64,000 nucleotides of DNA from Leucoraja erinacea (lineage: Eukaryota). The notes under the pieces were generated by a model. That model made no database searches. It was not told where the DNA came from and was given only the letters and a program-made list of their open reading frames with translations. Position numbers and translations under genes: made by a program. Numbering within the stretch: position 1 is the stretch's first letter; the number at the start of each line of letters is the position of its first letter. This document shows positions 1 through 50,849 of the stretch, in pieces. The DNA lies in the NCBI RefSeq assembly GCF_028641065.1, contig NC_073415.1:11842001-11906000 (forward strand), written 5' to 3'.

Positions 1-375
1 GTAACTCAGTGAAGAGAGACACACCAAATGCTGGAGTAACTCAGTGAAGAGACACACAGAATGCTGGAGTAACTCAGTGAAGAGACACACAGAATGCTGG
101 AGTAACTCAGTGAAGAGAGACACAGAATGCTGGAGTAACTCAGTGAAGAGACACACAGAATGCTGGAGTAACTCAGTGAAGAGACACACACCAAATGCTG
201 GAGTAACTCAGTGAAGAGACACACAGAATGCTGGAGTAACTCAGTGAAGAGAGACACAGAATGCTGGAGTAACTCAGTGAAGAGACACACCAAATGCTGG
301 AGTAACTCAGTGAAGAGAGACACCAAATGCTGGAGTAACTCAGTGAAGAGAGACACCAAATGCTGGAGTAACTCA
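1..375 (+). repeat. Minisatellite (33-35 bp, TGCTGGAGTAACTCAGTGAAGAGACACACAGAA) derived from the Penelope-related dispersed repeat
   Basis: About 11 units that run directly into a normal copy of the dispersed repeat at 361-412. Confidence 0.9.
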
Positions 376-2788
376 GCTGGACAGGCAGCATCTCTGGAGA
401 GAAGGAATGGGTGCACACACAGCCTGTTTACCTCCTGTCCAAACACATCAACTACTTTTTCCAAAGAGCTCAACTTGTAAAACTGTGCTGGAAATTAAAA
501 GCAAGTATTCCATTGGCCTTCAGGAGAACCGATGCAAATTCTCACCACAGCCTCATTACTGCAGCTCAGATCTTTTGGGAAATATTTGGCGCAGACTACA
601 AAACAAACTATAAAAAAAAGAAAGTTGCAGAGGCACCAAAATCGCTTTATACAAGACATTCAGTAGTACAATACAACGTCCTCCCTGCTGATCACTAGAA
701 CATATTAATGTATGACAGGCCCTTCAGCCCAAAATGTCTGTGCTGAAGAAAGGTCTCAACCCAAAACGTCACCTATCCCTTTTCTCCAGAGATGCTGCCC
801 AAACCACAGAGTAACTCCAGATTTTTGTGTCTATAATTCCAAGAAAAACTCCTAACTGCCTGCACGCGATCCATATCCCTCCATTCCCTGCATATGCATG
901 TGCCCTATCTAAAAGCCCCTTAAACACCACTATCGTATCTGAATCCACCACCACCCCTGGCAGCGCGTTGTAAGCACCCACATCTCCTTTAAACGTTGCC
1001 CCTCTCACCTTACAGGTATGCGCCTTGGTAGATACTTCCACCCTGGGGAAACGTTTGTGGCTGTCTATTGATTGGCACTGATGTCGCTGTGCAGACTTTA
1101 CTGACAGTCACTGCCTGGGTCTCAGGAGGCAGTGAAGGGTTAACCACTTACACCCTGTCATTGGTTCCCACGCCCACATTTACACAGAACCACAGCCTGC
1201 CCCCTCCCATCACCAGGGCCCTCCAGCAGTTTATTGTCAGATGGTGCACTGACATTCCTTGTTCACATCAAGCTTACAGATTAAACAATGTACATAAATA
1301 TTAAATACAATGAGGAGTGCAAAACACTGGAATGATGCAAGACGGTCAGTCAAACAACAAGCATTGCAATTTGTGTTTAGATTAGTTTAGTGTTATCATG
1401 TGTGCTGAGGTACAGTGAAAAGCTTTTGTTTGCATGCTAACCAGTCAAAGGCCATACATGAACATGAAGCCATCCACAGATAGAGCATAAAGGATACAAC
1501 ATTCAGTGCAGTATCAAGTCTGATTTAAGAAAGATCAGGTCCCCAGTGAGGTGAATGTGAGGTCAGGACCGCTCTCTAGCTGATTATTGAAGTTCACTAA
1601 TGGAATAACTGAAGGAGATAGAGTTCAGAGTAAGAGTATGTGGCAACCTACAGGTTCAGGAACAGTTTCATCCCTACAGCCGTTCGGCTATTAAACACAA
1701 CAACTTTAATTAACTCCAAGCTACATACACTATTATTGCCATTATTGCACTATTATTATTTATTTTTGTGTGTACGTATGTGTGTGTGTGTATATATATA
1801 TATAATCTATGTGTAGGAAAGAACTGCGGATGCTAGTTTAAATCAAAGATAGACACAAAATGCTGTAGTAACTCAGCGGGACAGGCAGCATCTCTGGAGA
1901 GAAGGAATGGGCGACCTTTCGGGCCGAGACCATTCTTCAGACATTATAGATATATAATCTATAAATATATGTGTATTTGTGAGTATGTTTATATGGGCAC
2001 ACACTGAACCTTTCTCTCTCATCTATTATATTGTTTACAGTGTATTATCTTTACATATTCTGTTGTGCTGCAGCAAGTAAGAATTTAATTGTTCTATCTG
2101 GGACATATGATTCCCCGCCTGTAACCGAGCATCCCCCTTGGTCTAGTACGTCAATGAAACAATCTTGACTCTTGGTCCAGGGGCTGAGTGAAGAACTTAT
2201 TCCACACCATTGACGGCAATGAAACAGTGTCAAGTTGCATGACTGTGCCTTTATAAATATGGGTCAAGGTATTAATAATTAGCAAAATAAGGGAAGTATG
2301 TATGTGACTTCATAATGAAGACTAAATTATACCAGTATGTTAATTTATTCTTGTGCTCCTGAACCTGCTGCTCCAGAATTGTAGATGGTGCTTTTATATT
2401 TCCTGTGTGTGCTGAGGTTGTGTAATCGTTCTAGGTTAAACAGGGAGTCAGTCTGAAACACACAGAACGCTGGAGTAACTCAGCGGGTCAGGCAGCATCT
2501 CTGGAGAACATGGATAGGTGACGTTTCAGGTTGGGACCCTTCTTCAGGGGCCTGGAATAGGTCAGCCATGATCACGTTGAGTGATGGGGCAGGCTCGATG
2601 GGCCGAATGGACCCACCCTACCCCTACGGTGGGTTCTTGAGTCCATTCCACTTCCAGAACATTCCAAATCACTACCCTGCCAATCATTATCCTGTATCTG
2701 TACACCATGCAGAGTTCGATTGTAATCATGTATTACCTCGGTATACGTGACAAAAAACTAAACTGAACCAAACCAAACCAAACATAAT

Positions 2789-2865
2789 GAGTCTGAAGAA
2801 GGGTCTCGGCCCGAAACGTCACCCATTCCTTCTCTCCAGAGACATTGCCTGTCCGCTGAGTTACA
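2789..2865 (+). mobile_element. Penelope-like-element-derived repeat with minimal hammerhead core (representative copy)
   Basis: CTGAAGA-A-GGGT(CTCG)GCCC-GAAACGTC followed by the conserved tail ACCCATTCCTTCTCTCCAGAGA...GCTGAGTTAC. Many other copies occur in the window. Confidence 0.7.
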
Positions 2866-3420: not shown

Positions 3421-3711
3421 TCGCCCTATCCATGTTCTCACGAGAGACTGCTGTCCCGCTGAGTTACTCCAGCTTTTTGTGTCTATCTTGGTTTAAACCA
3501 GCATCTGTAGCATCCTTCCTCTATGGAGCCCGGAATTGCTTACAAATAGTCAGGGATATTCGGGCCAAAGAGCTTCTGGGAATAGGCACTGGGCCTTCGG
3601 GATCAAACCACTGAGCTCAGCATCGCGGGCTGCACCCATGGACAGCTGAGCCAGGCTGCTGCTTGCCAGGGAGACAGGGGAAGCAGCAGAGACCCTATTT
3701 CCTTAGCCCAG

Positions 3712-3948
3712 AGATTCTGCCTGACCCGCTGAGTTACTCCAGCACTCTGTGAAACGTCACCTATCCATGTTCTCCACAGTGCTGCCTGACCCGCTGAGGT
3801 ACTCCAGCACTCTGTGAAACGTCACCTATCCATGTTCTCCACAGATGCTGCCTGACCAGCTGAGTTACTCCAGCACTCTGTGAAACGTCACCTTTCCATG
3901 TTCTCCACAGATGCTGCCTGACCTGCTGAGTTACTCCAGCACTCTGTG
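3712..3948 (+). repeat. About 3.5 tandem ~66-bp units of the same Penelope-related repeat
   Basis: Repeated GCTGCCTGACCCGCTGAGTTACTCCAGCACTCTGTGAAACGTCACCTATCCATGTTCTCCACAG. Confidence 0.85.
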
Positions 3949-6889
3949 TCCAGCTGGGTGTCAGTGTCTGGGCAAAAGCCATGGATTCAAGCTCTGCATC
4001 ATAATTCCTAAAGAAACGATGGTACACCGTGACTTGGTAATTGAAGGGAACTGTAAACACATCTCTCTGCTTCAGTTTATTTTGAGAAATACTTTAGAAT
4101 TAAACCAAATTGAGGGCCTCCACAGCTTTAACATTTTAATTAGCATTTCATGTTGTTGTTAGCCTACAATTACCTCATTAAATCCACTCAAAAGGTTATC
4201 TGCAGATTTAATTCCATACATGTTTGAATGCCACAAAGCCAGAAGAATTAAAAGCAGAGTGAAATTAAAGGATTATGCCCTGCATAGATTTGCACATTAA
4301 AAAGCCACAAGGAAGGTATTTACGGTGGGAAGATCGTGCAGAGAGCCATGAGATGAACAAGAAGGGAACTGAGACTCTCTCTCGTCCAGTCAATAAACGT
4401 CACAGAGCGGAGATCACAACGATGACAGTAGTTATTGCTATTTCAGTTGAGTTTAGTTTATTGTCACGTGTACTGAGGTATATTGAAAAGCTTCTGTTGC
4501 GTGCTAACCAGTCAGCAGAAAATCTATGCATGGTTACAATCGAGCCGTCAACAATGTACAGATACAGGATAAAGGGAATAACAAGAATAATGTTTAGTAC
4601 AAGATAAAGTCCAGTAAAATCTGATCAAAGATAGTCCAAGGTAGACACAAATGCTGGAGAAACTCAGTGGTGTGGCAGCATCTATGGAGCGAAGGAATAG
4701 GTGACGTTTCCATAGATGCTGCCTCACCCGCTGAGTTTCTCCAGCATTTTTGTCTACCGTCGATTTTTCCAGCATCTGCAGTTATTTCTGATAGACCAAG
4801 GGTCACCAATGAGGTAGTTGGTAGTGTATGAAGGAACTGCAGACGCTGGTTTAAACCGAAGATAGACACAAAAAGCTGGAGTAACTCAGTGGGCCAGGCA
4901 GCATCTTGAGAGAGAAGGAATGGGTGATGTTTCAGGTCGAGGCGCTTCTTCAAATGGTAGATGGTAGGTCAGGACTGCTCTCTACTTGGTGAGAGGATGG
5001 TGCAGTTGCTTATAACAGCTGAAACTGACCTTGACCGTGGTGATGTGTGTTTGGCAGTAGTGTATTGGTGGTTCCCAGGTACCTGGGCTTCATTCATCAG
5101 TCTGAAGAAGGGTTTCGGCCCGAAACGTTGCCTATTTCCTTCGCTCCATAGATGCTGCTGCACCCGCTGAGTTTCTCCAGCATTTTTGTCTGCCTTCTTT
5201 CTTGCATCCTGAGGACCTGTGATTGCCTCACGTGCCTCTCCCTTCGATCACACCTGTCCTACTCACCTGAGCACATCACCAATACCGAGAGAGAGCACAG
5301 TTTCAGGGGCCATCGTCCTTTAGGTTAGACTTAATTTCAATCTGCCTCTCAAGCAGGAACCATTATAAAATACATTTGGACAGTTACATGAGCAGGAGAG
5401 ATTCAGATGGAAATGGGTCAAACAAAGACAGGTAGGACTAGTGTAGATGTGGCATGTTGGTCGGCATGGGCAGGTTGTGCCAAAGGATCTGTTTCCATGG
5501 CAGTGCAAGAGGTGGTCTGTGGTCGAGATCTCTGCTCGGTGACATTTATTGACTGGACGAGAGAGTCTCAGTTCCCTTCTTGTTCATCTCACGGCTCTCT
5601 GCACGCTGTCGAGGTGGGATTAGGGTCGTGTGGGTCGGTGCAGGAAGCTGATTTTGCGTTCACATTTGTGGAACTCTCTCTGCATGTTGCGTGTACATCG
5701 TGAGTGTACACGGGGCGGTATATTCTGGGATGTTGTGAGCTGGTGAAAGGTGCGGTCTCTCTCATTACTTGACCAGAATTAAAGTGTAGTTTTTGGTTGG
5801 CACAAGAGGTGTACACGGCTGGCTTTATTCTGGTCTACACTACAAAGTGCTTGCTAATCATTGCACATTTCATGGCAGCTAACATCTGCCTTTTATTACA
5901 GCCTGCATGTAACTATTATCCATCATTAGCCAATGCAAAGTAGTCACTAATGGCAGTTTATACTGCTTGTTTGGATACAAACAACTGCCTCTGATGCCTC
6001 ATTATCCAGCGGAATTGTTGCAACAGCCCAGGATTCATTGAGGTGGGAGAGGATGGGGGGAGGTGGGGCTGGTGAAAGTATCAAACACACTACGCTAGCA
6101 ATGATAGTGTTTCACCAACAATTATAATTATATAACACCTTGTTTCACCTGCATTTATATAACACCTTGATCATCCCAGCAAGAGAATTCCAGAGCTACA
6201 TACATGAAGGAATGAAAAATTGAGCCATGTATATGATGCCTGGACTGGACATATATATAGAGGCTGAGAAAGGCAGGGACATGGAAAGCCTGGAGTCTCG
6301 AAACACCAGCTTCAGGAACAGATACTTTCTTACAACCATCTGGTTCATGAACTGCCCGCACAATCCTGAATAAGAGTTGGGCTTGGCATCATACTCAGAC
6401 GGCATAGACATTGTGGGCTGAAGGGCCTGTTCTTGTGCTGTCCTGTTCTATGTTTTAAGGATGGCTCGGACAGAAATTCCCAGAATGTGATCAGACAGAA
6501 ACTAGAAAGCAATTTAAACAAAGACTTGCCTTTCATTTGAGGATGCAAATCACAGCCATGTGGATGTAGAGGCTGGTTTAATGTTTGGGCGTGGAGCAGG
6601 CTTTGTCAGGCAAGCAGTATCACCGCACCCCAACTGCTCTGGATATAATGACTGGAACCTGACTCGGCATGCCTGCACGGGTTAAGTAATACATCTCTGC
6701 AGCTCCCTTGTCCCGGAGACTGAGGGTGGTGGGTTCACATCCCACACCAGAGTCGACATCACAAACACCTAGGTTGATATTGCAGTTAGTTTGACACTAA
6801 AAGCTGGAGTAACTCAGCGGGACAGGCAGCATCTATGGAGACAAGGAATGGGTGATGTTTCGGGTCAAGACCCTTCTTCAGAAATGGCC

Positions 6890-7135: not shown

Positions 7136-7380
7136 GGTGGCACGGTGCTGCAGCGGGTAGAGCTGCTGCCTCACAGCGCCAGAGATCCGGGATCGATGTC
7201 TATGGGGAGTTTGTACCCGGTATCATGTGGGTTTCCTCCGGGTACTCCAGTTTCTTCCCATATTGTAAAGACGTGCCAGTTTGCAGGTTAATTGGCTTCT
7301 GTAAATTACCCCTAGTGTGTAGGGAGTGGATGAGAAAATGGGAGAACATAGAACAGGTGTGAACGGGTGATCTATGGTCA
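7136..7380 (+). mobile_element. tRNA-derived V-SINE (HE1-like)
   Basis: Head GGCACGGTG..CAGCGGGTAGAGCTGCTGCCTCACAGCGCCAGAGA and central GGGTTTCCTCCGGGTACTCCAGTTTC. Confidence 0.8.
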
Positions 7381-8819
7381 GGAAGGAACTGCAGGTCCAG
7401 GTTTATACCAAAGATAGACACAAAATGCTGGACTAACTCAGCGGGACAGGCAGCAACTCTGGAGAGGAGGAATGGGTTACTAGACCCAGGACTGAAGATG
7501 GATCTTAACCCAAAGCATCACACATTCCTTCTCTCCAGATGCTGCCTGTCCTGCTGAGTTACTCCAGCATATTGTGCCTATGATCGATGGTTGGCATGGA
7601 CTGGGTGGGCCGAAGGGCCTGTTTCCATGCTGTATCACTGAAGTAAACTGAGATCCGTGGCCACGTCTATGAAGAACAGCCATCTCCAGTGTCATTGGCT
7701 TAGTGTGGGATTTCACTAACTGCTTTGTTTCCTCAAATACAACAGTAAAAACACCTCAAATGTTCCTTGTTTTCTGTAATAAAATGTGTTGGAATATCCT
7801 GAGTGTGAAGATTACGGCACAAACAAAATACCTTTTGGAATTATAACAATTTATCAACCCTCTCTGTGGACTGGTCTCAAGTTGTAATGTCACCTACTTC
7901 TTTTCTCCATAGATGCTGCCTCACCAGGTAAACTATTTATGTTCATTTCCTTTTGTAACGTTGCTGCTGAATCTCTCAGATATTCCACTCCGAGTGACAA
8001 TCTTCAATGCAAAGAGTTCTCCTCATTTCCACCTCATCCTCTCCCATATTTGTTAGTTATTTACTACCATAGTACCATACAGGTGTCAGGGGTTACGGGG
8101 AGATGGCAGGAGATGGGGTTATGAAGGAAAGATAGATCAGCCACGATTGAATGGCGGAGTAGACTCGATGGGCCGAATGGCCTAATTCTGCTCCCGTCAC
8201 CTGTAACCTTATGATGATAGAGCACCGTACCGATGATCTGAGGTCAAGGTTTCAAGGTCAGTTTATTTTCACATGCACCAATTAAGGTACAGTGAAATTC
8301 AAAGTCTATCTTCTCATCACTGGCTGGTCTGGGTCTGCCCAGTGTTTCTGCTTCCAGCAAAACCCCTCTAAACTTTGAGTATTAAATCTCAACGCCTTCT
8401 TTACACTGAAGATTGACCCAAAATACTGGAGTAAACCAGCGTCTGCAGTTCCTTCCTGCACCTTCTTCTCACTGCTGTCCCCCTCTACAGCAGTCCGCTG
8501 AGTGTCTCTATGCTGACTTTGTCTGTGATGTGGACGGACATTCATTGTTCTGGAGGGAACATAACTTTACAAATACACAATTTCCAGGGACTACAATGTG
8601 TTAGACCAAAGAGAAGACACTGCCCTCAACAGTTCTCCTGCAATGCTTTTGTCCTTTGTGTTTATCTGGGAGGTTTCCTGCCTTTTGCCCCAATTATGTA
8701 TCGACAGACAGTCATTCCGTGGATCGTGATGTCTTGCTGACTGGGATTTTGCACAGAATGATACGGTCCACACATTCACTGCCTCGTTACTGCATCGGGA
8801 GAGTCACAGGATCACCTCG

Positions 8820-9222: not shown

Positions 9223-11532
9223 AAATGGGAAGCTGACGCTGAACCACGGGAGACGTTAGTGAAGACAGCCACACGGTCACAATGGGAAGATTTACGGAAC
9301 CTCCAAAGAGATGTTAATTTCCTGGTACAGGTAGTTAAAGTTAAGAGAGGGTTTTGCAGACCTGAGTGTCAGTTCAAGGCAGGGCTGAAATTGGGGAAGT
9401 GATTCAATGGGGACAAGGCTCTCATGGACTCGTGGCACCAGAGGTATAAACTGTGGGGGAAAATGGCCGGTTTCCTTTATCATCGTTACTTTTTTGCTTA
9501 TCTTTCATTCATTTGTTTTATATCTCTCCAGATCACTGTCTATATCTCTCGTTTCCCTTTCCCCTGACTCTCAGTCTGAAGAAGGGTCTCAACCCGAAAC
9601 GTCACCCATTTCATCTCTCCAGAAATGCTGCCTGTCCCGCTGAGTTACTCCAGCTTTTTATGTCTATCTTCCCTCCACAGATGCTGCCTGACTCACCAAG
9701 TTCCTCCAGCACTTTGTGTTTTGCTCAAGATCCCAGCAACTGTAGTTCCTTGTCGGCTTTATAAATGCCAGCGTTTCTATTCTGAGATTGCATGAAGCTG
9801 CCTCATGAAGAAGGCATGAGATGGAGGATTTGATGGGACATCTGGATTACAACCCTGTCCTCCATTTCCCAATCAGGTTCAGCGTGTGGCAGCAACATTG
9901 TCTGCCGACATTCCTACACAATTTATTTTCATTATCTATTCGCTGGGACATTTCCCAGAATTTGTGGACCTGATACTTCAAAAAGACTTAATCAGCATTA
10001 AACATTTCCAGATGCACATCCCACCGACATCTTGCTCCGTAATGCTGAATCGCCACCAGCTTAAAGATGATTCATTCTAACCCCAACCATAAAACACCTG
10101 CTCTATTTCTTAACCAACAGCAAGGAGAAAGAGAATTTAGACACTAAATGCTGGAGTAACTCAGCGGGACAGGCAGCATCGACGAAGGGTCTAGAAAATA
10201 AAATGTATTTTACACACACGTACACCCGAAACGTTACCCATTCCTTCTATCCAGAGATGCTGCCTGTCCTGCTGAGTTACTCCAGCATTTTGTGACTATC
10301 TTGTTCAGTGTAGATATTGTGGGATAAAGGTCTGTTCCTGTGCTGCACTGTTTAATATTAAAATTCATCAGAGTTTTAATTAACGGCAGGAAAGGCTAAA
10401 GAGGCTCCTCTCCTCGAGTGTAAATACCTCCTATACGAGGCGCTTGGTGCTTTATCTGGGTGCTGGGGTAGAGGTCAGTGCAGCCGTGAAGGAGTAGAGT
10501 GCACCATCTGCATCAAGTTGCCAGGGAGCCAGGCACTGCCGGGAAGGGGGCAAGGCATCAAACAAGCTCCACATGCCGGAAGAGGCGGGTGCCAAGGCAT
10601 TCCGTGAGTAAAGGCCGAGAGGTTCCGAAGTGGAACAGTTCTGGAAATGTGCTCCTCACAATAAAATTAATGGCAGCTGTCATTGCCCCTAGCAACTCAG
10701 CTGTCGGTAAAACCCACTTACATCTCCAGATAAAGCATTTAATCATACTGCACGTAAACAGGCCCTTCAGCCCAACACATCAATGCTGACCAACATGCTC
10801 CAACTATATCCCATTTGCCTGCGTTTGGCCTAAACCTCTAAATCTTTTCAATCCATGTACCTGTCTAAATGTCTTTTAAATGTTGTTATTGTAGCTGCCT
10901 CAACTACCTCCTCTACCAATCTGTCCCATAGACCCAACACCCACCAGAGTCACTCGCCCCTCAGATTCTTATTAAGTCTTTCCCTTCTCACCTTAAACCT
11001 ATAGCTTCTGGTTCTTGGTTCCCCTACTCTGGGGGTAAAAGATTCACCATAACAATTCCCCTCATCATTTAATACACCTCTATAAAGGAGCAGATGAAGG
11101 GTGGAGGAGGCTGCAGATGTACAAGAAACAAAGCCATAGACAGAGTTGTCGGTGGGGATTATTGTTGGTTTGGTGTGTACGTGTGAGTGTGTATTTGCTA
11201 AGATCTAATATATATTTGTGTATGAACTTTTCTCTCTCGTTTATTATAATGTTTTGTGTACAATGTTTACATATTCTGTTGTGCTGTTGCAAGTAAGAAT
11301 GTCATTGTTCTATCTGGGACATACGACATTTACAATTACAGTGGGGTGAGTCAGACAAGAGACCTCCCTGCTGACACAAGTAGAGGGCAAGGCAGGGAGG
11401 GAGGGCCACGGTGCTGACAATATGCAATCCATGTGTAACCAAGGATGAATGAAGATTTCTGCGAGGGCAGGGCTTGTACCACGACAGCTGAGCGATTGTA
11501 CATCAGCAAGTTAATATTTAAGACCTGTAATG

Positions 11533-15110: not shown

Positions 15111-15762
15111 AGTTCTGCCAAATAAAAGGAGTCAGTTTGTTGAAGAGTACACGGGTGTTTTAATCAAAATGAAACAACCCATGCAAGGGCTGGAGTTCAG
15201 GGTGTGATGCGTCCTCTTTAGAGGAGACGTGACTGAGAGGTTCTTGTTGGGTAGCTCGGGAATATGGACAGCAGTTCCACACTGGCCGTTTTCCAGAAAA
15301 CAAAGCACTGGGAATACGCAACAGACCCAGCGGATGCTCAGCCATCGTGACGAGCAGACACCTGTTGACAGCGGAACTGTGGAGATAGTGATGAAGAGAG
15401 GGAAGTCTGAAGAAGGGTCTCTACTCCTAACGTCACCCATTCCTTCTTTCGGGAGATGCTGCCTGTTCCGCTGAGTTACTCCAGCATTTCGATTTAAACC
15501 GGCATCTGCAGTTGGTTCCAACACAAGAGAGGGAAGTGGCTGTAACTGAACCAGAGGAGGGCCAGACTCCACTGACCTATTCCTGCTTCTTCTCCTCGTG
15601 AAGATTCCCATCACAAAACCAGCGCAGGGGTGCACGACGATCCTTGCCTTTGGGCGGGGGGGGGGGGGGGGAATGGAAGAGCAAGTTTGGAATTTGTACG
15701 GAAAGAAAGGTGGAAGGGGCAGGAAGGGCGAGGGATATCGTGCAGCTTCTGGGGACCACGGC

Positions 15763-15899: not shown

Positions 15900-18800
15900 C
15901 TGCAGAGAAAGAATAAAACCTTCACAAACTGAAGCTTTTACATCACATTATCTTCCTCCTGCTTGATCTTCACAGTACCAACTTGACTGGAAGGATGCAG
16001 AGAGGATGACTGTCAGTCCTTTACCCAGGGCACAGGGTCTTACACTAGAGGGCTGAGGTTTAAGTTGAGAGGGGGAGATATTTAAAGGGGACTTGGCGGG
16101 GGAACTTTTCCACATGGAGGGTGGTGGGTGAATGGAACGAGCTGCTGGAGGAGGTGGTTGAGGTTGGGACTAACAAAATGTTTATGACATTTAGACTGGT
16201 GCATGGAGGACAGGTTTAGAGGGATGTGGACCAAAGGCAGGCAGGTGGGGTTTGTGTAGATGGGGCAACTTGATCGGCATGGCCAAGTCGGGCCGAAGGG
16301 CCTGTTTCCTAGCTCCATGATAATGATTTGTTGGAGAATCTGGAAATAAGGCTCACCCCCCCCCTCCCACCCCACCCCCCCCACCCCAGCTGGTGCCACA
16401 CTCCCCCTTACAGTGACCCCTGACCCTCCACACTCCCCCTTACAGTGACCCCTGACCCTCCACACTCCCTCCCCTTACAGTGACCCCTGACCCTCCACAC
16501 TCCCCCTTACAGTGACCCCTGACCCGCCACACTCTCCTACCGCAACTCGACGGGTCAGGACATTGACCGGTGGTCAGTCATGCAGTGTGGTGCTGGGCTG
16601 GGGTCAGAGGGGAGGGTCAGGGGTCACTGACCGGCAATGGGTCAGTGGTCACTCACCGGGTGCGGCCACGTGGACACCGTTGATGTGGGTGAGCTCGTTG
16701 GCTGGACGCTCCTCCACTGGGATGTGGTGACCAGAGTCCAGGCTGAGGTCACATGACTGGCTGGGGGCGGCCACATAGAAGGGGATGTGGTGGTGCAGGG
16801 CCACGATGGCCAGCTGGTACGTCCCCACCTTGTTGGCTGTGTCTCCATTGGCAGCAATCCGGTCAGCTCCCACCACCACCGCTACAGGGAGGGATGGGGG
16901 GGGGGGGGGGGAGGAGAGTGGGGGGAGGGGGAGTGGGGGGGGGGGGGGGGGGGGGGAGCAAGAGAGTGAGGATGATGAGGGGGGGGGGGGGGGAGAGAGA
17001 GAGTGACAGATTAGCCAAACAGAGACACAAGGAACTGCAGAAGCTAGAATCTTGAGAAAAACACAAAGTGCTGGAAGAACACAGCGGCTCAGGGAATGGC
17101 GGCGGGTAGACTGGTCACACACCAGTGTCCAGCCTGGCCTGAATCCCAGTGTCCAGCCTGGGCAGTGTACCCATTCCATCCACACCTCACATAATCAAAG
17201 ACCATGAGAGAAAGGCCAGGGCTGGAGAGGTGTTTGGGGAAGCTGCTCCATGCTGGGACCACCTGTGATAAAAGTTGGGGCAGCAGCTCCATGCTGGGAC
17301 CCGCCTGTGATTGCCGGGGCTGGCTCCACGCTGGGACCCACCTGTGATGGCTGGGGCTGGCTCCGTGCTGGGACCAACCTGTGATGGAGATTGTGATGAA
17401 GGTTGAGGCAGCAGCTCCGCGCTGGGACCTACTTGTGATGAAAGCTGGGGCAGCAGCTCCGCGCTGGGACCCACCTGTGATGAAGTTTGGGGCAGCAGCT
17501 CCATGCTGGGACCCACCTGTGATGAAGATTGGGGCTGGCTCCGTGCTGGGACCCACCTGTGATGAAGGTTGAGGCAGCAGCTCCATGCTGGGACCCACCT
17601 GTGATGAAGATTGGGGCTGGCTCCGTGCTGGGACCCACCTGTGATGGCCAGGGCTGGCTAGCTCCGTACTGGGACCCACCTGTGATGAATATTGGGGCTA
17701 GCTCCGTACTGGGACCCACCTGTGATGGCCAGGGCTGGCTCCGTACTGGGACCCACCTGTGATGTGCTTCTCCTTCATGGCCACAGCAGCCATGCTGTCA
17801 GTGATGAGCGTGGCTGGGATCTGCTCGTAGGTCAGCTCGTAGGCGGTCAGCCGCGCCCCTTGGTTGTACGGCCGTGTCTCCGTGCAGTAGACGTGCTCCA
17901 GACGACCCAGGGCCCAGAGCGATCGGATCACACCTGAGGCACAGCACACTCTTTAGTTTAGAGATACAGAGCTGAAACTAGCCCTTCGGCCCATCGAGTC
18001 CATGCTGACCAGTGGGGGAGAAGTAACTTTAAGAGTGGTGGGGGAGCAGGTCAAAGCCTGGTGAGTGATGGGTGGATACAGGTGAGGGGCGGGGGGTGGT
18101 GATTGGCAGATGGGTGGAGTAAGTGACAAAGGCTGGAGGTGGAGGATGGATAGAAGGGGGTATTGGGGAGAGGGGGATACAGTGCGAATGTCCTGCTCTG
18201 GCTCCATTCTCAGTGTCTGTATCCCTGCGGGGCCAGCTGTCTGTCGATGAGTGCAGGAGATGTGTATGAGATCTATACTGGAGGGACAGTGTACTTTGTG
18301 CTGTGTCTCTAGGGACAGGGAGGGTGAGGACAAAGGACTCAAGGCCAACGACCTCAGTCATTACACCTTTACTCCTACACACTAAGGACAATTTACAGAA
18401 GGCGATTAACCTACAAACCTGTACGTCTTTGTAGTGTGGGAGGAAACCGGAGCACCCGGAGAAAACCCACGTGGTCATAGGGAGAATATACAAACTCCGT
18501 ACAGACAGCACCAGTGGTCAGGATCAAGCTCGAGTCTCTGGTGCTGTGAGGAAGCAACTCCACCGCTGTGGCACCGTGCTCCGGTTTCCTCCCGCCCTAA
18601 ATCTCACAGCTGGCATTCTCAGTAATTCAGTATTGTGACACGAGTAAAGGCTATGATCATGAACTTGACAAGACTTAACACAGCTTGTACCAAGCCCTCT
18701 TCAATAAGTGCTGTGTTTGCAAATATCGCTCGCATCTGTGTTGTGAAAAGTGAGGCATCGATGTTAAAACAGGGACAGCAGGAAATACAAGGGATGATAT

Positions 18801-21688
18801 CAAACTTCTCTTCCTCAATGTGTAATAAGACTCTACTGCTACGCCACCAAAACAGAAACAGAAAAATAGGTGCAGGGGTAGGCCATTCGTCCACAATCAG
18901 TACCCCGTTCCTGCTTTCTCCCCAAATCCCTTGATTCCGTTAGCCCAAAGAGCTAAATCTAACTCTCTCTTGAAAACATCCAGTGAATTGGACTCCACCC
19001 GTCTGTGGCAGAGAATTCCACAGATTCACAAACATTTTTTCCTCATCTCAGTACTAAATGGCCTACGCCATATTCTTAATAAGAGGTGAGTGTGGAGACC
19101 CGGTCAACACTTACCCAGAGCGGTTCCGTAGCCTGCCGTGGCCAGGGAGCCCGTGTTACAATGAGTCAGGATGGTCACCTTGTCTGTTGTGGCCATGGAC
19201 AGAATGTGCTGGGCACCGTGTGACCCGATACTGTGGTTGTCTCTGATGTCCTTCTCCAGCATCGACTCTATTCTGCAAATCAAACTTCCATTGGGAAGAC
19301 AAGATGGTTTAGTCAGGAAGGTTTCGTCATGAGGGGAATAGATTATCTAGAATCTCTTGCCCAGAGTAGGGGAATCATGGACCAGAGGACATAGGTTTAT
19401 GGTGAAGGGGGAAAGATTTAATAGGAATCTGAGGGGTAACTTTTTCACACAGAGTGTGGTGGGTGTACAGTGACTGATGGGACTTTCCAGGTGGAATGTT
19501 GAGTAAAAGGAACTGAACCTACGATCCTTTGTTTAACTGAAAGGTTGTGGGGAGACTGAATGAAGACCCCAGGAGCCAAGGACATCTGAACAAGTCAACA
19601 AATTCTTCAGTACATGTCAAATTTTCCAAATCCTTGATCTTGGGGAAGTGTCCTCAGGGTGCAGAAATTTGAGAGAGATGCAAGCTGAGGAAACACCAGC
19701 GTAACGGTTTGTGATAGACAGATGGTTGGACAAGAGCCAGAGATAAAAAGACAAAAAGTGTGGGAAGAGGATAGAGGTGTAGTGAATTGTAAAGCTGGTG
19801 GAACCAACATAGATGGAGGGGGGTGAAATGGGGCAGAGGGAAGAGAGGGGGGAAGAAGGAAGGGCTTGTTAGACAATAGCTGCAGGAGTAGGCCATTCGG
19901 CCCTTCGAGCCAGCATCATCATTCAATGTGATCATGGCTGATCATCCACAATCAGTACCCCATTCCTGCCTTCTCCCCATATCCCCCGACTCCACTTTAA
20001 GAGCCCTATCTAGCTCTCTCTTGAAAGTATCCAGAGAACTGGCCTCCACCGCCCTCTGAGGCAGAGAATTCCACAGACTCACAACTCTTGGTGTGAAAAA
20101 GTGTTTCCTCATCTCCGCAAAAGAGAGTTAGCTCTTCGGGCAAAAGGAATCGAGGGATATGGGGAGAAAGCAGGAACGGGGTACTGATTTTAGATGATCA
20201 GCCATGATCATATTGAATGGCGGTGCTGGATCGAAGGGCCGAATGGCCTACTCCTGCACCTATTTTCTATGGAGGGTGAGGGGAGTGAGCATCAGGTCAG
20301 CACTCACTTCTCCTTGAAGTCGTCAGCAGTGGTGTCTGGCCTCTTGACCTCCAGCTGGATGAATTGGGTCAGGTCCTGGGCAGCTCGGGCCATGTTGACC
20401 GCCGTGGGTCTGGCCGTCACCAGGTAGTCCAGTGATTCCATGGCAAAGCTGGCCAGGGCTTCCTTGTCCATGTCCTCCCTGTGGTGGAGCTCCACCGCCA
20501 GGCTCAGGCAGCCAACAATGGCAATCGCTGGGGCACCTCGTACCTGCACAGGGGGCTGGAGTTACAGAGGGCCACGCACCAGGGGAGAGGGGGGGAGGGG
20601 GAGAGGGAGAGGGGGCAGGGGGAGAGAGGGGGAGGGGGGCAGGGGGAGAGAGAGGGAGGGGGGCAGGTGTGTAGAGAGGGAGGGGGGCAGGGGGGAGAGA
20701 GGGGGGGGGGGCAGGGGGAGAGGGGGGGGGGGTAGGGAGAGAGAGGGGGGGCAGGGGGAGAGAGGGGGGGGGGCAGGGGGAGAGAGGGGGGGGGGGGCAG
20801 CAGGGGAGAGGAGAGGGGGGGGGGCAGGTGTAGAGAGGGGGGCAGGGGGAGAGGAGGGGGGGCAGGAGAGAGGGGGGGCAGGGGGGAGAGAGGGGGGGGG
20901 GCAGGGGTAGAGGGGGCAGGGGGGGTAGGAGGGGCAGGGTAGAGAGGGAGAGGGGGGGGGCAGGGGTAGAGAGGGAGGGGGGCAGGGGGAGAGAGGGGGG
21001 GGGGGGGTACGGGGGGGGGGGGGGGGGGAGGGGAACCCCCAGGGGGGCCCCACCACAGACCACAGATCTGCTCTAGGATCTGTGAGGGGGGGGGCAGGTC
21101 TAGAGAGGGGGGGGGGCCCTGTACCCGCATGGGGGGCGATGTTTAGAGGGGGGGGGGCAGGTGTAGAGAGGGGGTCCACGGGGGGGTAGAGGGGGGGGGC
21201 CAGGTGTGGGGGGGGGCAGGGGGTCCAGGATGGAGAGAGGGGGCCAGGTGTAACGAGGGGGGAGGCAGGGGAGGAGATGAAGGGGGGGCAGGGGGGAGAG
21301 GGAGGGGGCAGGTGTAGAGGGGAGGGGGAGGGAGGGAGGGGGCAGGGGGAGGAGGGGGGGGCCAGGGGGGAGAGGGGGGGGGGACAGTGTAGAGGGGGGG
21401 GGGGGAGGGGGGGAGGGGGGGGCAGAGGGGGACAGAGGGGAGAGAGGGGGGGGGGGGTACGGGGGGGGGGAGGGGAACCCAACGAGGCCACCACAACCAC
21501 AGATCTGCTATAGGATCATTGACCACACCGCCTCTACCCCCACACCCCCCCTGTACCCGCATGGCGGCGATGTCGGTCCAGGCGGCGCTGACTCCATCCA
21601 CGGGCCGGTATTGGCGCCGCTGTGGCAGCTCCAGTTGGTCCAGGATGGAGAGGCGGCCCCGGCTGTAACGCAGCGCCTGCAGCTCCAT
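15763..21688 (-). CDS. MRI1: Methylthioribose-1-phosphate isomerase (methionine salvage), 6 coding exons, 358 aa
   Basis: Join (minus): 21688-21557, 20543-20308, 19284-19115, 17933-17757, 16881-16657, 15899-15763 = 1077 nt. MtnA/MRI1 motifs present: [66 protein letters not shown]. Confidence 0.95.
16657..16881 (-). CDS. MRI1: MRI1 exon 5 (AVVVGADR...HVAAP)
   Basis: 225 nt, tag/GTGAGT. Confidence 0.93.
17240..17762 (-). repeat. Minisatellite (37-42 bp) in MRI1 intron 4, each unit carrying the exon-4 donor sequence
   Basis: About 13 copies of ATCACAG/GTGGGTCCCAG on minus. Confidence 0.9.
17757..17933 (-). CDS. MRI1: MRI1 exon 4 (GVIRSLW...MKEKHIT)
   Basis: 177 nt, cag/GTGGGT. Confidence 0.93.
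18365..18577 (-). mobile_element. V-SINE (HE1-like)
   Basis: Reverse complement of the SINE head and central domain. Confidence 0.8.
19115..19284 (-). CDS. MRI1: MRI1 exon 3 ([12 protein letters not shown]...GYGTAL)
   Basis: 170 nt, aag/GTAAGT. An alternative in-frame cag acceptor would start the exon at 19272. Confidence 0.88.
20308..20543 (-). CDS. MRI1: MRI1 exon 2 ([11 protein letters not shown]...DDFKE)
   Basis: 236 nt, cag/GTGAGT. Confidence 0.93.
20580..21480 (+). repeat. Extreme G-rich low-complexity tract (MRI1 intron 1)
   Basis: Continuous G4-G10 runs separated by CA/AGA. Confidence 0.9.
21557..21688 (-). CDS. MRI1: MRI1 exon 1 (MELQALRY...IAAMR)
   Basis: accATGG Kozak context, 132 nt, donor GTACAG. 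Confidence 0.9.
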
Positions 21689-21835
21689 GGTGACCCGGCC
21701 CGGGGACAGGAGCACACGGGGAGGCCGGGGATGGAGGAGGGAGGGAGGGCCCAGAGGTGGGGGGTGAAGCCGGGGCCTAGGGTAGGTGGCGCCGCGGGGA
21801 GGGGGAGTGTCTGGGCCGGGGGGAGGGTCAGTGTA

Positions 21836-22236
21836 NNNNNNNNNNNNNNNNNNNNNNNNNNNNNNNNNNNNNNNNNNNNNNNNNNNNNNNNNNNNNNNNN
21901 NNNNNNNNNNNNNNNNNNNNNNNNNNNNNNNNNNNNNNNNNNNNNNNNNNNNNNNNNNNNNNNNNNNNNNNNNNNNNNNNNNNNNNNNNNNNNNNNNNNN
22001 NNNNNNNNNNNNNNNNNNNNNNNNNNNNNNNNNNNNNNNNNNNNNNNNNNNNNNNNNNNNNNNNNNNNNNNNNNNNNNNNNNNNNNNNNNNNNNNNNNNN
22101 NNNNNNNNNNNNNNNNNNNNNNNNNNNNNNNNNNNNNNNNNNNNNNNNNNNNNNNNNNNNNNNNNNNNNNNNNNNNNNNNNNNNNNNNNNNNNNNNNNNN
22201 NNNNNNNNNNNNNNNNNNNNNNNNNNNNNNNNNNNN
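21836..22236. other. Assembly gap (covers the MRI1 promoter region)
   Basis: N run. Confidence 1.
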
Positions 22237-22274
22237 TGAGTGAGGGGAGAGCTGAACAGGGGGTGAAATATTGA

Positions 22275-47390: not shown

Positions 47391-50300
47391 TTGTCTTCAC
47401 GACTGACACAGAAGTAGCGTTTTTTCACACTTGTTATTTTTGGGCAGAGCACCCAGGCAAATTCCTTGTATGTGAATACTTGGCCAATAAATGTATTTAC
47501 TTACTTAATCACACTAGAAGCGACAGGAACCTCTTCATTCCAGCAACGCTGAAACCCAAGACCAAGGTAAGAACTGTGATAGTGACATTTCAGCGACGTT
47601 TGGATACATATATGGATACACAGGGAATAGAGGAATATTGAATTTGTGCAGTTTGGGCATTATGTTCAGCACAAACACGGTGGAGCGGGGGTGTGTGTGT
47701 GGGGGGGGGGGGTGTGTGTGTGGGGGGGGGGTGTGTGTGTAGGCAGAGGGTGTATGTGGGGAGGGGTGTGTTTGGAGGGTGTGTGGGGGGGGAGTGTGGG
47801 CGGGTGTGTGTTGGGGGGGTGGTGTAGGGCGGGGTGCGGGGAGAGGGAGGATGTGGGAACTGTGTGGGAGGGGGGTGTGGGAACTGTCATGTGTAGTGGC
47901 AAGGTGTGGGAGGGTGAGTGGGGGGATGTATTTCTTGCTGTAGATTAGCTAGCCTGTAATTGCAACAACACAACAGTGGCAGGTATTTCTTGTATTCGTA
48001 TTGTATTGTATTCAAATTTATTGTCATTGTGTCAATTTGAGACAACAAAATGAATTTCCCTTACAGGCAGTATCGTTAAAAACAAATCACAAGAAAAATA
48101 ATAAAAATAAATAATAAATAAATAATAAAACATATTAAAAATAAAATTGAAATTGAATTAAAAATTTAAAAAAAGCACTGGGAATAATACAGAAGGTGCA
48201 GGATCAGTTCATTACAAATAGGAAGAGAGATTCCAAAGGGAGTAAGGGGCGACCGTGGCTGACAAGGGAAGTCAGGGACAGTATAAAAATAAAAGAGAAG
48301 TATAACGTAGCAAAGATGAGCAGGAAGCCAGAGGATTGGGTAACGTTTAAAGAGCAACAGAAGATAACTAAAAAGGCAATACGGGGAGAAAAGATGAGGT
48401 ACGAAGGTAAGCTAGCCAGGAATATAACGGAGGATAGTAAAAGCTTCAGGTATGTGAAGAGGAAAAAATAGTTAAGGCCAAAGTTGGACCCTTGAAGACT
48501 GAAAAGGGTGAATTTATTATGGGGAACAAGGAAATGGCAGATGAGTTGAACAGGTACTTTGGAGGGGGAGGAGCTTTAATACCCAGAAGTGTGGACGTGC
48601 CTCAGCCGCTGCAAGATGGCGAGCGAGAGGGTCACGACTCTCAGTCTGAGCTGGAAATCTACTGAACACAGAGAATACTGACCTGTGAGTGCTCTTTATG
48701 TGTTTTTAACTGCCTTTTGTAACTGTGCCTTTTGCAACTGTCTGCCTTTTGCAACTGTCTGCCTTTTGCAACTGTCTGCCTTTTGCAACTGTCTGCCTTT
48801 TGCAACTGTCTGCCTTTTGCAACTGTCTGCCTTTTGCAACTCTGCCTTTTGTCTTCACGACTGACACAGAAGTAGCGTTTCTTCACACTTCTTACTTTTG
48901 GGCAGAGCACCCAGGCAAATTCCTTGTATGTGAATACTTGGCCAATAAATGTATTTATTCAATGAAGCGACAGGAACCTCTTCATTCCAGCAACGCTGAA
49001 AGCCAAGACCAAGGTAAGAACTGTGATAGTGACATTTCAGCGACATTTGGATACATATATGGATACACAGGGAATAGAGGAATATTGAATTTGTGCAGTT
49101 TGGGCATTATGTTTAGCACAAACACTGTGGGCCGAAGGGCTTGCCCTTTTCTGTTCTAATTATTTAATTGTCATATGTACAGGCAACAGGCAATTTAAAT
49201 TATTGCTGTAGATTAACAAACCTATAAAAGCAAGGTAGTGTCCCAGCTCCCATGTTGTTCGGCATCTTCCTGTCTGCCCTCTGTCCTTTGTCTTCACGAC
49301 TGACACAGAAGGAGAGAATCTTCACACTAGAAGGTTGTGGGTGGAAAGAGAGAGAGGGGGCAGCGAGCGTTGTGGGGGGGGGGGGCGGGGGAGGTGTGTG
49401 GGGGCGGGGATGTACGTGTGGGGGAAGGGGTGTGGTGGGTGAGGGGTTGCAGGGGGAGAGGAGGTGCGTGGGGGGGGGTGTGTTTGTAGGGAGAGGGTGT
49501 ATGTGGGGGGGGGTGTGTGGGCAGAGGGTGTGTGGGGGGAGGGGTGTGTGTTGGCTGAGGGTGTGGGGGGGGGGTGTGTGTGGGCGGGTGTATGTGGGGG
49601 GGGGTGTGTGTGGGGGGTGTATGTGGGGGGGGGTGTTTGAGGGCAGAGGGTGCGTGGGTGATGGGTGGTGGTGAGGGGTGTGTGTGTGTGGGGGGATGCA
49701 GGCGGGGTGCGGGGAGAGGGGGATGTGGGAAGGGGCGTTGTGTGGGGGGTGTGTGTGGGCGGGTGTATGTGGGGGGGGGGGGTGGGGGGGTGTGTGTGGG
49801 TGGGTGGGTGGGTGGGGGTGAGTGTGTGGGCGGTGTGTGGGCGGTGTGTGGGGTGGGGGGGGGGGGGGGGGGTGTTTGAGGGCAGAGGGGTGTGGGCGGG
49901 GGGTGTGTGTAAGAGGTGTGTGTGTGTGTGGGGGGGGATGTAGGGCGGGGTGCGGGGATAGGGAGGATGTGGGAGGGGTGAGGGTGGGGGGGGATGTATT
50001 TCTTGCTGTAGATTAGCAAACCTGTAATTGCAACAACACAACAATGGCAGGTATTTCTGGGAATAATACAGAATAATGCAGGATCAGTTCATTCCAAATA
50101 GGAAGAGAGATTCCAAAGGGAGTAAGGGGCGACCGTGGCTGACAAGGAAAGTCAGGGACAGTATAAAAATAAAAGAGAAGTATAACGTAGCAAAGATGAG
50201 CAGGAAGCCAGAGGATTGGGTAACGTTTAAAGAGCAACAGAAGATAACTAAAAAGGCAATACGGGGAGAAAAGATGAGGTACGAAGGTAAGCTAGCCAGG

Positions 50301-50849
50301 AATATAACAGGATAGTAAAAGCTTCTTCAGGTATGTGAAGAGAAAAAAATAGTTTAGACCAAAGTTGGACCCTTGAAGACTGAAAAGGGTGAATTTATTA
50401 TGGGGAACAAGGAAATGGCAGATGAGTTGAACAGGTACTTTGGATCCGTCTTCACTAAGGAAGACATAAATAATCTTCCTGATGTACTAGTGGCCAGAGG
50501 ATCAGGGGTGATGGAGGAACTGAAGGAAATCAACATTAGGCATGAAATGGTGTTGGATAGACTGTTGGGACTGAAGGATGATAAATCCCCAGGGCGTGAT
50601 GTTCTGCATCCCAGGGTACTTAAGGAAGTGGCTCTAGAAATTGTGGAGGCATTGGTGATCATTTTCCAATGTTCTATAGATTCAGGATCAGTTCCTGTGG
50701 ATTGGAGGGTAGCTAATGTTATCCCACTTTTTAAGAAAGACGGGGGAGAGAAAACGGAATTATAGACCAGTCAGCCTGACATGGGTGGTGGGGAAGATGC
50801 TGGAGTCAATTATAAAAGATGAAATAGCGGCACATTTGGATAGCAGTAC

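What the first reader, a model, noticed from the sequence alone, without database searches (positions are those of the whole stretch)
2789..2825. High-copy dispersed repeat carries a minimal hammerhead-ribozyme core
Seen: CTGAAGA-A-[GGGT-CTCG-GCCC stem II]-GAAA-CG-TC-ACC at 2793-2823. Intact or near-intact cores also occur at 5102-5129 (+), 9576-9603 (+), 2517-2547 (-), 6852-6881 (-), 24203-24232 (-) and 29926-29954 (-). Broken cores lie at about 743, 1911, 4925, 7491, 15408, 34539, 36597 and 38042. Established: CUGANGA..GAAA..UH with a loopless palindromic ACGU stem III is the minimal type-I hammerhead described in Penelope-like elements, proposed to cleave as dimers. Inference: this is a non-autonomous Penelope-derived, retrozyme-like family at very high density (over 15 cores in 40 kb). 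Stem I is weak here (about 2-3 bp, GU/AC), so activity is uncertain.
Basis: partly seen in the sequence, partly recalled or inferred. Interest (0 to 1): 0.75.

Follow-up and report, generated by a model that had tools for sequence, protein, structure and literature searches.

The report
Penelope-end repeat with minimal hammerhead
The motif is a real minimal hammerhead-ribozyme sequence at the head of a very abundant 100-140 base repeat, likely the end piece of a Penelope-like jumping gene; this kind has been known since 2014, and these copies decay with no sign of selection on the ribozyme core.

Summary
2793-2820 is a complete minimal type I hammerhead core; 5 sites pass a strict descriptor (1 hit in 200 shuffles) and 19 fragments carry most of a core. 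The cores head a 100-140 nt dispersed repeat in at least four subfamilies. It shows the structural marks of Penelope-like element (PLE) 3' ends: 8 head-to-head inverted pairs, an optional ~36-nt tail on one member in 6 of 8, 11-18 bp target-site duplications and 5' truncation. No linked RT/GIY-YIG ORF was reached, so PLE origin is inferred. 'Retrozyme-like' is not supported: no tandem of whole cores in the window, and such joints are rare in genome contigs. Within subfamilies the core is no better kept than the body (142/156 vs 1582/1725), catalytic G12 decays like any CpG, and RNA reads show no ends piling at the cut site. Two unexplained details: 5' ends cluster at the ribozyme's first bases, and duplications occur only in tail-bearing units (7/12 vs 0/13). 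This scan noted the same kind in three findings on other shark DNA. New member of a known kind; interest low.

The parts
2793..2820 (+). Focal minimal type I hammerhead core (C3 to C17; predicted cut 2820/2821)
2791..2864 (+). Focal repeat copy, subfamily A, 3'-truncated, no tail, no target-site duplication
2787..2827 (+). Possible stem I of the focal copy: 6 of 7 positions pair, the outer 4 use flank sequence (probably chance)
9460..9671 (+). Longest copy: ~115 nt pyrimidine-rich upstream part shared with other genomic copies, strict core at 9576-9603, body to the tail-less end
5098..5197 (+). Subfamily B copy; core 5102-5129 passes the descriptor, GUU triplet
29863..29975 (-). Subfamily A copy with 23 nt of upstream sequence; core passes the descriptor (3-nt loop II)
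24083..24283 (.). Subfamily C copy (core at 24232-, passes descriptor) with one extra 66-nt core-less unit and a short inverted partner
1810..1942 (-). Tail-bearing copy with an 18-bp target-site duplication (17 matches, TA-rich); palindrome broken
2460..2547 (-). Subfamily C copy, core intact but stem I lost
743..834 (+). Subfamily D copy, G12 mutated
4640..4788 (.). Head-to-head inverted pair, tail on one member, 12-bp duplication (11 matches)
4825..4953 (-). Tail-bearing copy, broken core, 12-bp duplication (11 matches)
6793..6882 (-). Subfamily A copy, palindrome broken (ACAU)
7378..7581 (.). Inverted pair, tail on one member, 11-bp duplication (10 matches)
8400..8459 (.). Short inverted pair, tail on one member, no duplication above threshold
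10135..10302 (.). Inverted pair without tail, no duplication
15404..15523 (+). Tail-bearing copy, broken GAAA, exact 13-bp duplication
23397..23559 (.). Inverted pair, tail on one member, exact 13-bp duplication
27259..27378 (-). Tail-bearing copy, decayed core, no duplication found
34441..34566 (-). Subfamily B tail-bearing copy starting inside the core, no duplication found
36547..36627 (-). Subfamily A copy, G5 mutated, internal deletion
37938..38117 (.). Subfamily B inverted pair, tail on one member, 17-bp duplication (16 matches)
40892..40999 (.). Short inverted pair, tail on one member, no duplication found
3694..3955 (+). Tandem of 66-nt subfamily C units that begin at GAAAC and lack CUGANGA and stem II
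8..413 (-). Copy starting at the cut site (413-345) followed by ten 33-nt units made from its 3' end

Best explanation
The site is a minimal type I hammerhead motif at the head of a short dispersed repeat that is likely the 3' end (pseudo-LTR) of Penelope-like retrotransposons, and the genomic copies, this one included, are likely inert. Shown: the motif, the 41 fragments plus a 10-unit array, subfamilies with a shared core, head-to-head inverted pairs, an optional ~36-nt tail, target-site duplications, 5' ends mostly at or inside the ribozyme, and neutral-looking decay of the core. Inferred mechanism: the RT/GIY-YIG protein of an autonomous PLE nicks the genome with a staggered cut (11-18 bp duplication) and starts reverse transcription at one of two internal sites about 95 and 130 nt downstream of the core, as shown in vitro for the anole element PAc, which gives the two classes of 3' end. 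cDNA synthesis mostly ends at the 5' edge of the ribozyme, often with a second, inverted copy joined head to head. The template is mostly uncleaved RNA, since copies keep the whole ribozyme rather than starting at the cut site. In the source elements the core would cleave only as a dimer or with protein help (loopless ACGU stem III, 2-bp stem I); after insertion the copies drift.
For: Core features match the min-HHR description: bulged base between 9 and 10.1, G10.1-C11.1, palindromic 15.2-16.2 (paper; copies). 8 head-to-head pairs, tail on exactly one member in 6 of 8 and never on both, the arrangement described for PLEs; inversion joints at 9571-9575 also stand in genome contigs and RNA reads. 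3' ends of 37 independent fragments: 19 at alignment columns +88..+109, 13 at +128..+137, 1 between, 4 shorter. Duplications with >=10 matches in 7 of 25 units against 2 of 600 mismatched flank pairs (14 of 600 with wider windows). No poly(A) end in the printed 3' flanks; ARAGORN finds no tRNA gene in the window. Summed contig depth rises from 0.5-1.6 M upstream to 17-20 M over the core and 35-46 M near the 3' part. Only 2 of 37 5' ends lie at the cut site, 13 of 37 at columns -5..+5. Within subfamilies core 142/156 vs body 1582/1725, p=0.76; G12>A in 15.4% of contig depth against 7.8% and 11.7% at the body CpG.
Against: No RT or GIY-YIG ORF was linked to the repeat: the upstream 216 bases of the longest copy give no Pfam hit in 3 frames, and protein and DNA collection searches were blank or chance. 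No Dfam/Repbase comparison was possible. Pooled over subfamilies the core looks more conserved than the body (190/203 vs 1685/1952, p=0.002), which I attribute to subfamily differences and edge bias. The sharp 5' step is stronger than plain truncation would give. Stem II shows no two-sided compensatory change between subfamily majorities, only U-A to U-G. Duplications here (11-18 bp) are longer than the 8-10 bp reported for rotifer PLEs. Cleavage was not tested.
Confidence: 0.8

Rival explanations
1. The 100-140 nt unit is a discrete non-autonomous element, a PLE-dependent SINE: a short RNA that starts at the initiator-like TCAGTCT just before the core and is mobilised in trans by PLE protein. 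This shares the PLE origin but makes the copies full-length rather than truncated.
For: 13 of 37 5' ends fall at columns -5..+5 and only 2 reach further upstream. Contig depth steps about 12-fold at 9571-9575; 691 contigs have unrelated sequence before 9573, the A of TCAGT; tandem and inversion joints restart at 9571-9577. An Inr-like TCACT is reported in a rotifer pLTR and Penelope has an internal promoter. The commonest subfamily (A) has a stop at codon 18 of the frame from the conserved ATG, while subfamily B stays open through the tail.
Against: Longer copies with the same core exist (9460-9671, 29975; reads). Part of the depth step comes from subfamilies whose upstream sequence is too different to be laid (loose ends). 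No place where many RNA molecules begin (table 6). The Inr match is low in information, is judged against a recalled consensus, and overlaps a 3' splice-site-like tract. In 15407 the first three bases belong to the duplication.
Confidence: 0.3
2. It is a non-LTR retrozyme family: tandem units self-cleave, circularise and reinsert, and the dispersed copies are monomer offspring.
For: Some head-to-tail joints of the 95-98 nt unit exist in genome contigs (4-7 contigs each for 5 listed joints); 66-nt tandems occur in the window and in reads. A 2026 preprint reports retrozymes in its one chondrichthyan genome and derives them from pLTRs.
Against: No tandem with two whole cores in the window; the 66-nt unit lacks half the core. 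Monomers cut by the ribozyme would start at the cut site, and only 2 of 37 do. The ribozyme is the minimal, not the canonical, type. Inverted pairs and tail are PLE marks.
Confidence: 0.07
3. The dispersed cores are active in host RNA: at one core per few kb, two copies in one pre-mRNA pair through ACGU and cut the transcript, so selection acts on them.
For: 5 descriptor-passing cores in 64 kb; 0.27-0.29% of RNA reads in three runs carry the repeat; the focal copy has a 6-of-7 stem I.
Against: No excess conservation or excess loss of the core within subfamilies. The active dimer fold is predicted 17-27 kcal/mol above the dimer minimum for 6 of 6 pairings, because the core strand pairs with the pyrimidine run downstream (no positive control was run). 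No pile of read ends and no depth step at 9603/9604 (these libraries are poorly suited). Published min-HHR dimers cleave weakly, 8 of 9 Xenopus dimers did not cleave, and the anole ribozyme needs its protein.
Confidence: 0.05
4. The match to a hammerhead is chance within an unrelated SINE or LINE tail.
For: Rfam gives no hit; none of 5 copies folds better than shuffles (z from -1.25 to 0.57); no two-sided covariation.
Against: All 11 invariant core bases, the bulge, stem II and the palindrome sit in register in the subfamily majorities as far as they are covered; 5 hits against 1 in 200 shuffles (the 5 share one ancestor, so this is not 5 independent events); the carrier has PLE architecture, where such motifs are expected.
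Confidence: 0.04

Closest known systems
Minimal hammerheads (min-HHR) in pLTRs of metazoan Penelope-like elements (Cervera and de la Pena 2014, PMC4209133)
   Same: Type I core, loopless palindromic stem III, bulged base before stem II, G10.1-C11.1, thousands of dispersed single copies read as truncated PLEs (about 4,000 in coelacanth, 9,000 in Xenopus tropicalis).
   Different: Stem I is 2 bp (as in D. virilis) rather than 4-5 bp, stem II 4 bp; density here is far higher (19 core-bearing fragments in 64 kb); the parts of the paper I read name no cartilaginous fish; no ORF linked here.
Poseidon element PAc of Anolis (Frangieh et al. 2024, PMC11167929) and Adineta vaga Penelope families (Arkhipova et al. 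2013, PMC3846280)
   Same: Two classes of 3' end separated by a 30-40 nt tail, about 100-140 nt downstream of the ribozyme; head-to-head inverted pLTRs with the tail on one; target-site duplications; solo pLTRs without duplication; uncleaved RNA as template; no RNA-seq ends at the cut site.
   Different: No protein in hand; duplications 11-18 bp against 8-10 bp; most copies begin at the ribozyme's 5' edge; no evidence that an ORF starts in the repeat.
Non-LTR retrozymes (Cervera and de la Pena 2020, PMC7229834; Li et al. 2026 preprint 10.64898/2026.07.22.740005)
   Same: Short non-coding repeat with a type I hammerhead, related to pLTRs; monomer copies spread along chromosomes.
   Different: Not tandem here, minimal rather than canonical ribozyme, copies do not start at the cut site, no circular RNA evidence.

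Membership tests
Metazoan PLE minimal hammerhead (min-HHR) | Core CUGANGA...GAAA...UH in type I order | tested here: met
Metazoan PLE minimal hammerhead (min-HHR) | Unpaired base between A9 and 10.1; G10.1-C11.1 pair | tested here: met
   A in 14 of 15 copies; G 14 of 17, C 15 of 21
Metazoan PLE minimal hammerhead (min-HHR) | Palindromic 15.2-16.2 without loop III | tested here: met
   ACGU; C 20 of 24, G 18 of 24, losses mostly CpG decay
Metazoan PLE minimal hammerhead (min-HHR) | Helix I of 4-5 bp (2 bp in the D. virilis variant) | tested here: inconclusive
   2 bp in the element's own sequence; 6 of 7 at 2793 through flank
Metazoan PLE minimal hammerhead (min-HHR) | Compensatory changes in stems across families | tested here: inconclusive
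   only a one-sided U-A to U-G change between subfamily majorities A and B
Metazoan PLE minimal hammerhead (min-HHR) | Self-cleavage as dimer or with protein | not testable with these tools
   needs a bench assay; folding predicts the active dimer is disfavoured
Penelope-like elements (EN+) | Single ORF with RT and GIY-YIG endonuclease flanked by this repeat | tested here: inconclusive
   no genome held; searches blank or chance
Penelope-like elements (EN+) | Inverted 5'-truncated copy joined head to head | tested here: met
   8 pairs; inversion joints in contigs and reads
Penelope-like elements (EN+) | Optional 30-40 bp tail at one end | tested here: met
   3' ends bimodal, 19 vs 13 of 37; tail on one member in 6 of 8 pairs
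Penelope-like elements (EN+) | Short target-site duplication | tested here: met
   7 of 25 units vs 2 of 600 null pairs
Penelope-like elements (EN+) | 5' truncation | tested here: met
   depth gradient; 5' ends
Penelope-like elements (EN+) | Consensus matches a Dfam/Repbase Penelope pLTR | not testable with these tools
   no repeat library available
Non-LTR retrozymes | Tandem repeats with a whole hammerhead in at least two consecutive units | tested here: not met
   none in the window; 4-7 contigs per joint among 167,301 laid records
Non-LTR retrozymes | Canonical type I hammerhead with 6-bp helix I and loop I-II contact | tested here: not met
Non-LTR retrozymes | Monomeric linear and circular RNAs ending at the cut site | tested here: inconclusive
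   no pile of ends (table 6); libraries are oligo-dT and single-cell, poorly suited

The most novel reading that the evidence does not exclude
The repeat is a true PLE-dependent SINE, among the most abundant elements of this genome: a 100-140 nt RNA that starts at an initiator overlapping stem I, so the ribozyme is left with a 2-bp stem, stays uncut and is copied whole by PLE protein. The two 3' start sites would give two integration routes, since only tail-bearing insertions carry a target-site duplication (7 of 12 vs 0 of 13). Hundreds of thousands of such junctions would then be a ready data set for the unresolved PLE integration mechanism.
Probability: 0.25. Interest if true: 0.5.

Novelty: new member of a known kind. 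Interest (0 to 1): 0.22.

Why it matters
As it stands it extends a known association (minimal hammerheads in PLE ends) to a very dense family in what is probably a cartilaginous fish, and gives annotators a name for about 6% of this window (3,768 of 64,000 bases). Its use would be as a large natural sample of PLE insertion junctions: the link between tail and target-site duplication, and the stop at the ribozyme's 5' edge, bear on how PLEs finish integration, which the in vitro work leaves open. It gives no evidence for a host function.

Tried and rejected
No whole genome is held, so no genome-wide model search and no look at long copies. Rfam gathering scan: 0 hits. Exact-pattern scans for two motifs of the repeat: 0 in viral contigs, metagenome contigs (21, 31) and GTDB genomes (32). 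A 44-aa open frame across the repeat found no longer homologue; the 30-aa frame from the conserved ATG of subfamily B gave 2 hits, a lectin-repeat protein and a short repetitive protein, both judged chance. So the idea that the PLE ORF starts in the repeat has no support. A six-frame Pfam scan of the whole window was not completed; only 11 ORFs and 3 frames of 9360-9577 were scanned, so small PLE ORF remnants elsewhere in the window are not excluded. The pooled excess conservation of the core was rejected after splitting by subfamily (4 locally duplicated units and 2 subfamily E fragments left out; subfamilies assigned by hand). The idea that splicing at the upstream pyrimidine tract plus CAG completes stem I, as in D. 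virilis, found no support: no shared upstream exon in window copies or among the listed loose ends (1,284 rows not shown). Run search: no RNA holder listed for 2100-2460. Single-cell reads lie about 8:1 on the minus strand, but the mate type is unclear and the bulk library is even, so no strand claim is made. Look-ups of earlier findings by sequence and place were blank. Literature searches for a description of this family in sharks or skates found none; Lunse et al. 2017 is not held.

Full report
Context. The window is eukaryotic repeat-rich DNA with exons of an adaptor-complex medium subunit (Pfam PF00928 at 28899-29276-) and of an IF-2B-family gene (PF01008 at 16652-17194-), and LINE-type RT pieces. 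That it is a cartilaginous fish is my inference from recalled repeat types and from the earlier scan notes; no call tested it. No genome is held.

Observation. The focal motif is as described. C3 is at 2793, C17 at 2820. A strict descriptor finds 5 cores (2793+, 5102+, 9576+, 24232-, 29954-), against 1 hit in 200 shuffles. 19 fragments cover most of the core, all below 40 kb. Rfam does not score these minimal motifs.

The carrier. A profile from 10 hand-picked window copies finds 51 hits: 41 fragments and 10 units of a 33-nt array at the window start; 0 on the reversed window; 3,768 bases covered, 3,683 of them in the first 40 kb. By hand the fragments fall into subfamilies A (21), B (6), C (3 after dropping 4 locally duplicated units), D (5) and E (2); their majorities differ in the body but share the core where covered. 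Of 37 independent fragments, 3' ends lie at alignment columns +88..+109 (19) or +128..+137 (13), about 95 and 130 nt after C3; 1 lies between and 4 are shorter. 5' ends lie at -5..+5 in 13, further upstream in 2, at the cut site (+28/+29) in 2, and elsewhere inside in 20. There are 8 head-to-head inverted pairs; 6 carry the tail on exactly one member, none on both. 7 of 25 insertion units have flanking duplications of 11-18 bp with at least 10 matches, against 2 of 600 mismatched flank pairs, or 14 of 600 with wider windows. In 4 of the 7 the duplication encloses a whole inverted pair, so a pair is one insertion event. All 7 are tail-bearing units (7 of 12, against 0 of 13 tail-less; Fisher p=0.0016, noticed after the fact, boundaries set by hand).

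Genome-wide view from reads (9430-9675 laid at 85% likeness with 4 of the 24 runs listed). 167,301 contig records of a DNA run of the same species label were laid. Summed depth is zero before 9457, 0.5-1.6 M over 9466-9546, 17-20 M over the core and 35-46 M over 9628-9654; the tool warns that this is no copy number, and dips follow variant bases of the reference. So the upstream pyrimidine-rich part belongs to longer versions of the element, and most copies start at 9571-9575; part of the step is due to subfamilies with another upstream sequence. Loose ends after 9671 give the tail. Inversion joints sit at 9571-9575. Head-to-tail joints of the 95-98 nt unit are in 4-7 contigs each among the listed joints (224 more not shown). 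In three RNA runs 0.27-0.29% of reads carry the repeat, 89-98% of them running on into unlike sequence; the bulk run shows both strands evenly and a profile like the DNA, which fits passive transcription within host RNA. No place has many molecule ends, and depth shows no step at the cut site; these libraries could easily miss such ends.

Selection on the core. Pooled, the 11 invariant bases match the column majority in 190 of 203 cells against 1685 of 1952 for the body (p=0.002). Within subfamilies and away from edges this vanishes: 142 of 156 against 1582 of 1725 (p=0.76); without CpG 128 of 135 against 1543 of 1673 (p=0.40). G12, the general base, lies in a CpG and is read as A in 15.4% of contig depth, against 7.8% and 11.7% at the two bases of the body CpG; the palindrome's C and G are lost in 7.7% and 10.0%. 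I read this as a core maintained in the source elements and drifting in the copies. The sample is small, and weak selection would not be seen.

Folding. None of 5 copies folds better than shuffles. At 2793 the minimum fold pairs the CUGAAGAAGGG strand with the pyrimidine run after the cut site, hiding the core. The active dimer fold lies 17-27 kcal/mol above the dimer minimum in 6 of 6 pairings of 2793, 5102 and 9576. Nearest-neighbour energies ignore the core's tertiary contacts and no positive control was run, so this is weak.

Comparison. Cervera and de la Pena 2014 (PMC4209133; read parts 1-2 of 4 of the text) define the min-HHR, report thousands of single copies per genome as probable truncated PLEs, and find no monomer and low dimer cleavage. 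Craig et al. 2021 (PMC8557442; passages), Arkhipova et al. 2013 (PMC3846280; passages) and Goubert et al. 2022 (PMC8969392; passages) describe inverted 5'-truncated copies, the optional 30-40 bp tail, duplications of 8-10 bp and solo pLTRs without duplication. Frangieh et al. 2024 (PMC11167929; parts 1-2 of 4) show that the tail lies between two internal RT start sites, that uncleaved RNA is the main template, that the ribozyme needs the protein, and that RNA-seq has no ends at the cut site. Retrozymes are tandem and mostly canonical (PMC7229834; passages; preprint 10.64898/2026.07.22.740005; parts 1-3 of 5). Schostak et al. 2008 (PMC2377424; passages) show an internal promoter and a 5' intron in Penelope. 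Lunse et al. 2017 was not available and is known here only through a review (PMC6765202; passages). I did not read the supplements of the 2014 paper, and those of the preprint are closed; either may already list this family or a close relative, since the preprint includes one chondrichthyan. Searches found no paper describing it.

What is missing. The defining PLE feature, an RT+GIY-YIG ORF next to the repeat, could not be shown. An earlier scan note reports such an intact element with cores in both pLTRs in another shark genome (e1-7857333); I could not check it, and sequence look-ups did not tie it to this repeat.

Verdict. A real minimal hammerhead motif in a dense PLE-type repeat: new member of a known kind, probably inert at this site, interest 0.22. 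The two details worth a genome-wide count are the stop at the ribozyme's 5' edge and the link between tail and target-site duplication.

Noticed in passing
window 25500-36955 (-): Exons of an adaptor-complex medium subunit gene, probably AP-1 mu (Pfam PF00928 for 28899-29276; other exons seen in ORF translations). Several repeat copies lie in its introns.
   Followed up: partly
window 16652-21400 (-): Exons of an IF-2B-family gene, probably methylthioribose-1-phosphate isomerase (Pfam PF01008; the name MRI1 is recalled).
   Followed up: partly
window 42100-55100: Several repeated, rearranged pieces of a CR1/L2-type LINE (RVT_1 hit at 44427-44807) with G-rich low-complexity inserts; the hammerhead repeat is absent beyond 41 kb. 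Could be a segmental duplication or an assembly artefact.
   Followed up: no
window 55700-58900: Scrambled fragments of another LINE, RTE-like by recalled motifs; no Pfam hit in 3 ORFs tested.
   Followed up: partly
window 8-344 (-): Ten 33-35 nt tandem units built from the 3' end of the repeat copy at 345-413: a minisatellite seeded by the element.
   Followed up: partly
window 3694-3955 and 24083-24240: 66-nt tandem units of subfamily C that start at GAAAC; the same joint is in hundreds of RNA reads, so it is a genome-wide variant.
   Followed up: partly
window 9540-9575: Pyrimidine tract ending in CAG just before the ribozyme; resembles both a 3' splice site (as in D. virilis Penelope) and an initiator. 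No spliced joint found.
   Followed up: partly
window 37924-38016 (-): A conserved ATG about 50 nt after the core opens a frame that runs through the tail in subfamily B but stops at codon 18 in subfamily A; no homologue found.
   Followed up: yes
window 7139-7323, 33783-33963, 1363-1582, 4434-4640: Other dispersed repeat families (SINE-like by recall) into which several hammerhead-repeat copies are inserted.
   Followed up: no
window about 21830-22240, 33960-34320, 37010-37620: Three assembly gaps (1,353 N in all), next to G/C-rich low-complexity sequence or repeats.
   Followed up: no
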